A stretch of DNA of 64,000 nucleotides from Clarias gariepinus. Lineage: Eukaryota. The stretch spans positions 2,727,451-2,791,450 of the forward strand of contig NC_071110.1 of assembly GCF_024256425.1 (NCBI RefSeq), written 5' to 3'. This document shows positions 4,126 to 5,112 of the stretch, in pieces. The position numbers were made by a program. Every line of letters begins with the position of its first letter. Within the stretch, counting starts at the first letter, position 1.

Positions 4126-5112
4126 TGTAAATATGCATGGAAGTCTTATTTAAAGTGAATTATAAGCCAAGAAATGAAATAGACAATGTCTATGTCAATA
4201 AATTTTAAAAAATTGTTTATTGCTGTGTGGTACTGATTGAGAGACCGTATCGCCTTACATATCGCCTTACATGTTGAGAATTTGTGTAAATAGTCTTCTT
4301 TGTGATTTATGATAATATTCTCATAAATTTTATTCGGAATTGTTAAAAATATTTTTGGTCCAAGACTGTATATTGTATATTTAAATGTGTTTTTAGTCTG
4401 TATAGGGAAGTAGCTGTGTAAAGGGATAAATTAACAAAACATGTGAAGACAAGTGAGAGCAAAAAAAAAAAAAAGACAGTGAGACTAGACTCAGCATGGA
4501 AGCAAGACCATTAATTTTATTACAGAAACCTCTACAACAGTCTGATTTATAAACATTGTGGGCAAAATAAGATTTAAATAAAAAATATTTCTCACATCTG
4601 TTCACTAATCTACGGAGCCCCCCAGGGGTCATGAGGAGGAAAAAAGAACAAACAGAGCACACGGATTAATAAATCATGCGCTCGATTAATAAATCGTGTG
4701 CACGGAATAATGAACCGAGAGCGCGGAATAAAATATCCGTGCGTGCGGACTAATAAACCTTGCGCGCGGAATAATAAAACCGTGTGCGCGGATTAATAAA
4801 CTTTGAGCACTAAATAATAAACAGTGCGGGCGGAATAATAAACTGAGCGCGCTGATTGGTTTACACGTCTGGATTCGAAGTTATGACCTGGTCGGACATG
4901 GACGGAGAGGAAGGAGCTCATACAGCCAGCACAACAACTTTAAGGTATGTAACCAACTTTTCACTTAATATTTACCCATTTAACTTAATTTTAAAGGTTT
5001 GTGGATAAGTTTGCTTGTTCCACACATTTTATGAGGCTTTTCTGTGCCCCATCTTTTGCTCCAGGCTATCTTTAAAATGTAAATATAGTGTAACAACACC
5101 ATGCTTCCCCCG

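What the first reader, a model, noticed from the sequence alone, without database searches (positions are those of the whole stretch)
4655..4860. Sub-terminal arrays of CGGAATAATAAA-type motifs in both inverted repeats
There are about 8 to 10 direct iterations of a 12 to 16-bp motif (GCGCGGAATAATAAAC, CGGATTAATAAA and similar) at 20 to 30-bp spacing, 40 to 250 bp from each terminus. The mirror array is at 14650..14885. Reiterated sub-terminal motifs of this kind are classic transposase-binding sites (as in En/Spm, Ac and P elements), and here they are organised identically at both ends.
Basis: seen in the sequence. Interest (0 to 1): 0.55.

Follow-up and report, generated by a model that had tools for sequence, protein, structure and literature searches.

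The report
Repeat arrays at IS3EU transposon ends
The repeated 21-base motifs are real and sit just inside both ends of a decayed fish "IS3EU" cut-and-paste transposon; the same arrays occur at the ends of related elements from fish, sea urchin, bivalve and beetle, so they are most likely docking sites for the element's own transposase.

Summary
There are 9 units at 4655-4852 and 10 units at 14655-14878, with a 21-bp period. They start 45 bp inside the tips of a 10.3-kb element (4611-14922) with 1.39-kb inverted arms.

The element belongs to the IS3EU/GingerRoot type. It has TACGG..CCGTA termini, an rva_4 integrase-like DDE transposase and a convergent HECT-like gene. This copy is decayed (frameshifts, a stop codon, no target-site duplication).

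All 27 related element ends I examined (nine fish copies, sea urchin, bivalve, beetle, one unidentified eukaryote) carry an array 30-110 bp from a conserved TACGGARCCC tip. Periods are 21, 23, 28 or 33 bp, with 2-33 units. A matrix built only from other lineages' units places 17 of its 19 best window hits inside the two arrays.

[quoted passage not shown] Its nearest solved folds are IS21 IstA, TnsB and MuA, which all bind repeated ~22-bp end sites.

Transposase binding is therefore the best explanation, but it is inferred. The arrays also lie immediately upstream of the genes, so a promoter role is not excluded. This is a known kind of feature that I did not find described for this superfamily.

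The parts
4611..14922 (.). Whole element, 10,312 bp, IS3EU/GingerRoot type, from TACGGAGCCC to GGGCTCCGTA. Its flanks are CTAATC and CTTTAT, so this copy has no intact 6-bp target-site duplication.
   Evidence: Inverted repeats; tips read; the tip motif occurs only twice in the window.
4611..5995 (+). Left inverted arm, about 1.39 kb, 98% identical to the right arm.
   Evidence: pairs I1-I5.
13400..14922 (-). Right inverted arm.
4611..4654 (+). Non-repeated terminal block TACGGAGCCCCCCAGGGGTCATGAGG followed by an A-rich run. The first ~25 bp are conserved across phyla. It is the likely cleavage and terminal recognition site.
   Evidence: Alignment of 10 ends: T1 A2 C3 G4 A6 C9 C20 invariant, GGGAC(A/G)TGG then an A run shared.
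4655..4852 (+). Left sub-terminal array: 9 direct units of ~21 bp, consensus CCGTGCGCGCGGAATAATAAA.
14655..14878 (-). Right sub-terminal array: 10 direct units (one more than the left).
14879..14922 (-). Right non-repeated terminal block, the mirror of 4611-4654.
4855..4859 (-). ATTGG (CCAAT on the - strand), 3 bp after the last unit. A possible promoter element, present in both arms.
   Evidence: Read directly from the sequence; function is inferred.
4898..4944 (+). Exon-like stretch inside the left arm: ATG...AAG followed by the donor GTATGT at 4945. A matching acceptor (..ctctgcag) at 6262 lies 24 bp before the HECT-like gene's ATG.
   Evidence: Similar exon-plus-GTAAGT stretches follow the arrays in L004 and L005. 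There are no RNA data.
14568..14614 (-). The same exon-like stretch in the right arm. An acceptor (..gttaacag) near 13250 lies about 125 bp before the integrase ATG.
11822..13125 (-). Integrase-like DDE transposase gene. Exon 1 is 13125-12292 and exon 2 is 12162-11822. A frameshift falls near 11947. The catalytic motifs WHVDSYDKL, RADMGTEN and QRIESWW are intact.
   Evidence: Pfam rva_4 4.3e-22; tblastn against the Misgurnus protein; 645 homologues; weak IS481 and IS3 matches.
6286..9916 (+). HECT-like second gene, convergent with the transposase. Exon 1 is 6286 to about 8011, the last exon about 9722-9916. This copy has a frameshift near 7030 and an in-frame stop at 7931-7933.
   Evidence: tblastn; Pfam HECT 24.1 bits on the Misgurnus orthologue; the same gene pairing.
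10496..10864 (+). Short ORF that I judged by eye, from recalled sequence motifs, to resemble the C-terminus of a LINE reverse transcriptase; possibly a nested insertion.
   Evidence: ORF listing only. There was no Pfam match at E <= 0.01, so the assignment is untested.

Best explanation
The arrays are cis-acting end sequences of an IS3EU/GingerRoot-type cut-and-paste transposon. Each ~21-bp unit has a GC-rich half (YCGTKnnCnCRR) and an AT-rich half (ATTAATAAA). [quoted passage not shown]

A row of sites spaced two helical turns apart would load several transposase protomers on one face of each end. The conserved outermost 25 bp (TACGGARCCC...GGGACRTGG) would sit in the catalytic site. The two loaded ends would then be paired for excision and for insertion with a 6-bp stagger.

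Because the genes begin 25-75 bp, or one short exon, inside the arrays, the same sites probably overlap the promoter. That would let the transposase feed back on its own expression.

Shown here:
- the arrays exist;
- they are conserved in place, period and unit pattern;
- the type of element;
- the protein's domain layout.

Inferred:
- protein-DNA binding;
- the phasing argument;
- the promoter overlap.
For: 1. Conservation of architecture. All 27 element ends examined carry a tandem array within the sub-terminal 800 bp. These come from 15 copies: the window, Misgurnus, two Melanotaenia copies, Oryzias melastigma, Danio, Acipenser, four Larimichthys copies, Lytechinus, Sinanodonta, Brassicogethes and one unidentified ENA eukaryote. 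Array density there is 20.8 times that of the rest of the loci (details).

2. Conservation of position. Arrays start 30-110 bp from a tip that is nearly the same in all lineages.

3. Period. It is 21 bp (or 42 = 2 x 21) in the window and in 7 of the other 10 lineages. It is 23 bp in Danio, 33 in Acipenser and 28 in the beetle, where the unit is the 21-bp pattern with a 7-bp insert.

4. Conservation of unit sequence across phyla. When phased on YCGT, the units read CCGTGCGCGCGGAATAATAAA (window), TCGTGCTCTCGGATTAATAAA (Oryzias), GCGTTCCCTCGCAAAG (Danio), TCGTTCCCTCAAATTAATAAT (bivalve) and TTCGTTCCCACGAAATAGTAA (Larimichthys). A position weight matrix built only from seven non-window lineages puts 17 of its 19 best hits, over both strands of the 64-kb window, inside the two arrays, which make up 0.7% of the sequence.

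5. Recently mobile copies keep the arrays while copy number drifts. The four Larimichthys loci (from two assemblies of the species) and the two Melanotaenia copies encode identical transposases and have perfect 6-bp duplications. They carry 9-12 and 5-11 units respectively. The 3.1-kb Melanotaenia copy lacks the HECT-like gene but still has arrays at both ends.

6. The protein fits. The AlphaFold2 model of the 73%-identical Misgurnus protein (pLDDT 87.5) has helices 3-43 and 55-101 ahead of an RNase H-like core. Its best solved-structure matches are IS21 IstA, TnsB and MuA, then retroviral integrases.

7. The IstA parallel is close. IstA has HTH-1 (aa 1-39) and HTH-2 (aa 55-104). It needs two direct repeats per end, spaced 23 bp apart, and each repeat has two conserved blocks split by ~10 AT-rich bp (PMC10122671). 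TnsB ends consist of multiple 22-bp sites (PMC9371665).

8. The N-terminal region is strongly conserved across 39 homologues, with L24, F61, G70, Y75, R76, G86, R95, D102 and P103 invariant. That matches a conserved DNA pattern.
Against: - There is no direct evidence of binding.
- Unit sequences differ much more between lineages than the N-terminal protein domain does. The conserved domain may therefore read only the conserved 25-bp tip, and the arrays may be read by something else.
- The arrays lie exactly where a promoter must be: the ATG is 25-75 bp inside the array in Danio, Sinanodonta and Larimichthys. Conservation could reflect transcription rather than transposition.
- Unit number changes freely (2 to 33), which is typical of slippage-prone minisatellites.
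- The window copy has no target-site duplication and broken genes, so it says nothing about activity.
- Phasing the units on YCGT was chosen after looking at the data. The matrix test is the less biased check.
- No gene-less derivative that had transposed was available to separate the two roles.
Confidence: 0.6

Rival explanations
1. The arrays are promoter or enhancer repeats that drive inward transcription of the adjacent gene from each inverted arm. They would be read by host transcription factors, not by the transposase.
For: - In compact relatives the transposase ATG lies 25-75 bp inside the array, so the promoter has nowhere else to be.
- In the window each arm has ATTGG 3 bp after the last unit, then an ATG..AAG|GTATGT exon-like stretch. 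Acceptors sit just upstream of both genes' ATGs.
- L004 and L005 have similar exon-plus-donor stretches.
- Units contain TATA-like AT-rich blocks.
Against: - The unit pattern is shared by hosts as distant as bivalve, sea urchin and fish. This is easier to explain by co-inheritance with the element's own protein than by shared host factors.
- The array is kept at the right end of the 3.1-kb Melanotaenia copy, where no gene faces it. That copy is young, so this point is weak.
- The role is not exclusive of transposase binding.
Confidence: 0.2
2. The arrays are bound by another element-encoded protein. The candidate is the variable N-terminal part of the HECT-like protein, acting as an accessory end-binding factor the way TnpA does in En/Spm.
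For: - The HECT-like gene is paired with the transposase from bivalve to fish.
- Its N-terminal and middle regions are much less conserved than the transposase (48% versus 62-72% identity between the window and Misgurnus). That matches the faster-changing unit sequence.
Against: - No DNA-binding domain was detected in it.
- The 3.1-kb Melanotaenia copy, which lacks this gene, has a perfect target-site duplication, although the protein could act in trans.
- Several relatives showed no HECT-like gene in the called genes.
Confidence: 0.1
3. The arrays are neutral minisatellites that arise and expand by slippage in a repeat-prone part of the inverted arms, with no function.
For: - Unit number differs between the arms of one copy (9 versus 10 here; 12.8 versus 15.2 in Danio) and between copies of one family.
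- Periods are not strictly fixed (21, 23, 28, 33 bp).
Against: - Arrays are present at 27 of 27 ends, at the same offset and in the same orientation, with a 20.8-fold excess over the surrounding DNA.
- The unit pattern is recognisable across phyla although the neighbouring non-coding DNA cannot be aligned.
Confidence: 0.07

Closest known systems
[quoted passage not shown] 2019, PMC6839031; Kojima 2023 and 2025, PMC10045372 and PMC12730594)
   Same: - TA..TA termini, specifically TAYGG..CCRTA.
- 6-bp target-site duplications in relatives.
- Terminal inverted repeats.
- An integrase-like DDE transposase without an HHCC zinc finger, with weak IS481/IS3 similarity.
- Hosts that include zebrafish, beetles and other animals.
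   Different: - The papers I could search do not mention sub-terminal or tandem repeats (0 occurrences).
- GingerRoot inverted repeats are given as 100-150 bp; here the arms are 1.39 kb.
- A HECT-like partner gene is not described in them.
- This copy lacks the duplication.
IS21 (IstA), phage Mu (MuA) and Tn7/CAST (TnsB) multi-site transposon ends
   Same: - They are the best structural matches of the modelled transposase.
[quoted passage not shown]
- Their ends are built from direct repeats of ~22-23 bp, and each repeat has conserved blocks split by AT-rich DNA (PMC10122671, PMC9371665).
   Different: - They are prokaryotic.
- They have 2-4 sites per end, often unevenly spaced and differing between left and right. 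Here there are 5-33 contiguous units, essentially symmetric.
- No AAA+ partner (IstB, MuB or TnsC) is encoded here; the second gene is HECT-like.
Sub-terminal repeat motifs of En/Spm (TnpA 12-bp motif), Ac/Ds and other hAT elements, and pogo-like Lemi1/Emigrant
   Same: Short motifs are reiterated within a few hundred bp of both ends and are bound by element proteins. In En/Spm they overlap the promoter (my own knowledge; background papers listed).
   Different: - They belong to unrelated transposase superfamilies.
- Their motifs are usually dispersed and in mixed orientation, not a strict head-to-tail 21-bp array.
MuDR (maize Mutator)
   Same: Two convergent genes, each transcribed inward from a promoter inside a terminal inverted repeat that also holds transposase-binding sites (my own knowledge).
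   Different: It uses a different transposase superfamily, has ~220-bp repeats without a long tandem array, and makes a 9-bp duplication.

Membership tests
IS3EU / GingerRoot | Termini TA..TA, more precisely TAYGG..CCRTA | tested here: met
   The window element runs TACGGAGCCC...GGGCTCCGTA. Fourteen related copies have the same tip; the beetle has TACGAAGG. The criterion comes from PMC12730594 and PMC10045372.
IS3EU / GingerRoot | 6-bp target-site duplication (in this copy) | tested here: not met
   The flanks are CTAATC and CTTTAT. This points to rearrangement after insertion or recombination between copies, not to a different family.
IS3EU / GingerRoot | 6-bp target-site duplication (in the protein's close relatives) | tested here: met
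   Perfect duplications GATTCA, ACTTCC, AGAAGG, GGAAAG, GAGATA, CACTTC, ATATAT, TGTTTT, ATATAC and GAAAAG in ten copies. The beetle copy and L018 did not show one.
IS3EU / GingerRoot | DDE transposase of the integrase/IS3/IS481 kind, lacking the HHCC zinc finger | tested here: met
   Pfam rva_4 4.3e-22. NCBIfam IS481 at 1.5e-5 and IS3 at 5.9e-4, both far below the family cut-offs. The N-terminus is modelled as helix-turn-helix with no HHCC. The invariant residues D131, D190 and E231 fit a DDE triad.
IS3EU / GingerRoot | Transposase groups with Repbase IS3EU or GingerRoot sequences in a tree | not testable with these tools
   No Repbase or GingerRoot protein sequences were available to me.
Sub-terminal transposase-binding repeats | A short motif reiterated near both ends and conserved among copies and related families | tested here: met
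Sub-terminal transposase-binding repeats | The motif is bound by the element's protein and is needed for transposition | not testable with these tools
   This needs gel-shift or footprinting experiments and transposition assays.
IS21 / Mu / Tn7-type systems | [quoted passage not shown] | tested here: met
   AlphaFold2 model; Foldseek matches to IstA at 3.4e-7, TnsB at 6.7e-6 and MuA at 9.6e-6; 21-bp units.
IS21 / Mu / Tn7-type systems | A dedicated AAA+ ATPase partner (IstB, MuB or TnsC) | tested here: not met
   The only other conserved gene is HECT-like. The element therefore works like these systems at its ends but is not a member.

The most novel reading that the evidence does not exclude
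IS3EU elements across Bilateria share one ancestral end design: a conserved 25-bp tip followed by a head-to-tail array of ~21-bp bipartite sites. These sites would be read by a tandem helix-turn-helix transposase. That would make IS3EU a eukaryotic counterpart of the IS21/Mu/Tn7 multi-site transpososome, with the array doubling as a self-regulated promoter, and with a HECT-type ubiquitin-ligase-like gene as a long-standing partner instead of an AAA+ ATPase.
Probability: 0.45. Interest if true: 0.55.

Novelty: new member of a known kind. Interest (0 to 1): 0.4.

Why it matters
[quoted passage not shown] The results here give it a concrete end anatomy that can be tested: a conserved tip plus a phased 21-bp array, kept from bivalves to fish.

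They also link it mechanistically to the best-understood bacterial transpososomes. Families with identical copies and perfect duplications (Larimichthys, Melanotaenia) are candidates for reconstruction as active elements. In those, the number of sites per end could be varied directly.

On the practical side, the arrays are a useful signature for annotating these elements and their gene-less derivatives in animal genomes.

Tried and rejected
- **Other integrase-bearing transposons.** I considered Ginger1, Ginger2/TDD and Polinton. Their published termini (TG..CA, or AG..TC for Polinton) and 4-5-bp duplications (Ginger) do not fit, and no polymerase gene is present (PMC6839031, PMC10045372).
- **Poly(A) signals.** I considered that the AATAAA inside the units might form an array of poly(A) signals that stops read-in transcription. 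I rejected this because AATAAA is absent from the Oryzias, Melanotaenia, Danio and beetle units.
- **Further copies in the window.** I looked for more copies or gene-less derivatives in the window and in about 400 kb of fetched loci, using the tip motif. None turned up, so the transposition and promoter roles could not be separated this way.
- **Uninformative or incomplete loci.** L002, a 7.3-kb Logan contig with a protein 81% identical to the window's, has no arrays, but it also lacks the element ends, so it tells us nothing. The right ends of the sea urchin, bivalve and ENA copies were not found within the fetched flanks.
- **Bacterial-style scans and collections.** The promoter/terminator scan and the phage, plasmid and E. 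coli collections were not used, because the sequence is from an animal.
- **Tip versus unit.** A possible similarity between the tip (TACGGA) and the units (CACGGA/CGCGGA) is too short to weigh.

Full report
**The observation**

The window is animal DNA, fish-like and rich in transposable elements. At the reported coordinates Tandem Repeats Finder gives a 21-bp-period array at 4662-4852 (9.0 copies). Its mirror lies at 14655-14871 (10.3 copies). The motif CGGAWTAATAAA, allowing one mismatch, occurs 13 times in the 64 kb against 0.66 expected, and no shuffle came close. All 13 hits fall in the two arrays, on opposite strands.

Listing the units by hand gives 9 on the left and 10 on the right, spaced 19-24 bp apart. 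The core GA[A/T]TAATAAA is well kept, and the GC-rich block CCGTGCGCGCGG next to it is looser.

The two arrays are not identical, because the right one has an extra unit. Their mirror symmetry is a consequence of lying inside long inverted arms.

**The element**

The inverted arms run 4606-5995 and 13400-14927 at 98% identity. The tips are TACGGAGCCC at 4611 and GGGCTCCGTA ending at 14922.

Two convergent genes lie between the arms. On the - strand is an integrase-like DDE transposase: Pfam rva_4 at 4.3e-22, 645 homologues mostly in fish, and weak matches to the IS481 and IS3 transposase models. On the + strand is a gene whose Misgurnus orthologue just passes the Pfam HECT threshold.

Compared with that orthologue, this copy is decayed. 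The transposase has a frameshift near codon 348. The HECT-like gene has a frameshift and an in-frame stop. An ORF at 10496-10864 looked to me like a LINE reverse-transcriptase fragment, but it had no Pfam match.

**Which family**

Published descriptions give IS3EU/GingerRoot TA..TA termini and 6-bp duplications (PMC10045372, PMC6839031). For fungal IS3EU the ends are specifically TAYGG..CCRTA (PMC12730594). The window element has those termini.

Its own flanks, CTAATC and CTTTAT, do not form a duplication. Ten related copies do have perfect 6-bp duplications directly abutting TACGG..CCGTA. I file the element as IS3EU/GingerRoot type, with two caveats. I could not compare it with Repbase sequences, and this particular copy fails the duplication test, probably through later rearrangement.

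I fetched the DNA around homologous transposase genes from Misgurnus, Melanotaenia (two copies), Oryzias melastigma, Danio, Acipenser, Larimichthys (four loci from two assemblies), the sea urchin Lytechinus, the bivalve Sinanodonta, the beetle Brassicogethes and an unidentified ENA eukaryote.

Every end that could be located carries a tandem array starting 30-110 bp from the tip:

| Lineage | Period | Copies |
|---|---|---|
| Misgurnus | 21 bp | about 10 |
| Melanotaenia (two copies) | 42 bp (2 x 21) | 2.6 and 5.6 |
| Oryzias | 21 bp | 8.3 |
| Danio (two arms) | 23 bp | 12.8 and 15.2 |
| Acipenser | 33 bp | about 2 (left), 4.6 (right) |
| Larimichthys | 21 bp | 9-12 |
| Lytechinus | 21 bp | about 5, then a second block of about 8 |
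| Sinanodonta | 42 bp (2 x 21) | 16.6 |
| Brassicogethes (two arms) | 28 bp | 11 and 14 |

Counted over 15 copies, 27 of 27 sub-terminal zones hold such an array. Their density there is 20.8 times that of the rest of the loci. The outermost ~25 bp are nearly the same in all lineages (TACGGARCCC..GGGACRTGG, then an A run).

**The unit pattern is also conserved**

Phased on YCGT, the units of distant lineages line up:

- CCGTGCGCGCGGAATAATAAA (window)
- CCGTGCGCTCGGATTAATAAA (Misgurnus)
- TCGTGCTCTCGGATTAATAAA (Oryzias)
- GCGTTCCCTCGCAAAG... (Danio)
- TCGTTCCCTCAAATTAATAAT (bivalve)
- TTCGTTCCCACGAAATAGTAA (Larimichthys)
- ACGTGCGCACGAGATAGCAT (sturgeon)
- CCGTG[TTATAT]CTCGGAATTTTAAAA (beetle)

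I chose that phasing after seeing the data, so I ran a less biased check. I built a weight matrix from seven non-window lineages only and scanned both strands of the whole window. Seventeen of the 19 best hits fall in the two arrays, which make up 0.7% of the sequence. Hits occur on both strands because the GC-rich block is nearly palindromic and has AT-rich DNA on both sides.

The neighbouring non-coding DNA of these elements cannot be aligned between lineages. The units are therefore under constraint.

**The protein**

An AlphaFold2 model of the intact Misgurnus protein (73% identical to the window's; 39-sequence alignment; mean pLDDT 87.5) shows two helical bundles at residues 3-43 and 55-101. 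A linker helix and an RNase H-like core follow.

The best Foldseek matches among solved structures are IS21 IstA, TnsB of CAST and Tn7, and MuA, followed by retroviral integrases. The published IstA structure parallels both this protein and these units:

- a ~400-residue protein;
- HTH-1 at residues 1-39 and HTH-2 at 55-104, joined by a minor-groove linker;
- two direct repeats per end, required for activity and spaced 23 bp apart;
- each repeat made of two conserved blocks separated by ~10 AT-rich bp (PMC10122671).

Tn7-like ends likewise consist of multiple 22-bp TnsB sites (PMC9371665). The N-terminal region of the IS3EU protein is highly conserved across phyla, which fits a conserved DNA target.

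**Mechanism and rivals**

My best explanation (0.6) is that each unit is a bipartite site for the transposase's tandem helix-turn-helix domains. The two-turn spacing would line several protomers along one face of each end, and the conserved tip would occupy the active site.

The main complication is position. In Danio, Sinanodonta and Larimichthys the transposase ATG lies 25-75 bp inside the array. In the window each arm continues with ATTGG, then an ATG..AAG|GTATGT exon-like stretch. Acceptors sit just upstream of both genes' ATGs. The arrays therefore sit where the promoter must be.

I regard promoter overlap as likely and compatible with binding, in the form of self-regulation. A purely host-driven promoter role (0.2) cannot be excluded without start-site mapping.

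Binding by the HECT-like protein (0.1) is possible but has no positive support. A neutral minisatellite (0.07) is disfavoured by the conservation.

**Comparison with what is known, and novelty**

Sub-terminal binding repeats are well known in En/Spm, hAT, pogo-like and other elements, and in Mu, Tn7 and IS21. The superfamily itself is known. What I did not find in the searchable literature is any description of these arrays in IS3EU/GingerRoot: there were no occurrences of "subterminal" or "tandem repeat" in the three main papers. [quoted passage not shown]

The element is not a member of the IS21, Mu or Tn7 families, because it has no AAA+ partner gene. It only resembles them in how its ends appear to work. 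I rate the finding as a new member of a known kind, of moderate interest.

**Limits**

- All functional statements are inferred from sequence, comparison and a predicted structure.
- The structure is of a homologue, not of the frameshifted window protein.
- No RNA data, no Repbase sequences and no gene-less derivatives were available.
- The species of the window is unknown. The closest protein, at 99% identity, comes from an unnamed Logan assembly.

Noticed in passing
window 6286-8011 and about 9722-9916 (+); L001 11962-13956; L004 13652-17010; L006 12753-18506; L008 16108-21600; L012 and L014 12636-15069: The transposase is paired, tail to tail, with a 600-775-residue HECT-like gene in fish and in a bivalve. 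This looks like an old partnership. No paper among the top-ranked results of the search linked HECT with IS3EU or GingerRoot. Many 'uncharacterized' or G2E3-like HECT genes in animal annotations may be this transposon gene.
   Followed up: partly
window 4605-4610 and 14923-14928: This copy has no 6-bp target-site duplication (CTAATC versus CTTTAT), although its arms are 98% identical and ten related copies have perfect ones. Recombination between two copies, or a flank rearrangement, is suspected but not shown.
   Followed up: partly
window 4855-4949 and 14562-14614; acceptors at 6262 (+) and about 13250 (-): Each inverted arm holds a CCAAT-type box, a short ATG-containing exon-like stretch and a strong splice donor. 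Each gene has an acceptor just before its ATG. Both genes may therefore be transcribed inward from identical promoters inside the arms, as in maize MuDR.
   Followed up: partly
L003 8986-12067 versus L004 8829-18678 (Melanotaenia boesemani): Two copies encode the identical transposase. One is a 3.1-kb version without the HECT-like gene and with half as many repeat units, yet it has a perfect duplication. The family looks recently active. So does the Larimichthys family: four loci from two assemblies, all with perfect duplications.
   Followed up: partly
window 19132-23394 (+) and 43319-46708 (-); also 32303-33235: Ty3/Gypsy-type retrotransposon coding regions (gag, reverse transcriptase, RNase H, integrase, chromodomain). 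They account for the GC-rich blocks of the window.
   Followed up: partly
window 59144-61828 (+) and 48197-48250 (-): A LINE with a GDSL-esterase-type first ORF and an endonuclease domain, and a separate UnaL2 LINE 3' element (Rfam RF00436, 57.7 bits).
   Followed up: no
window 26151-27992: A stretch of about 70% G+C with 30-, 45- and 108-bp tandem repeats (GGCGGC-rich). It is covered by a 613-codon ORF on the - strand that has no Pfam match. Its nature is unknown.
   Followed up: no
window 10496-10864: An ORF in the element's interior that I judged by eye to resemble the C-terminus of a LINE reverse transcriptase, which would make it a nested insertion. It had no Pfam match at E <= 0.01, so this is unconfirmed.
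   Followed up: no
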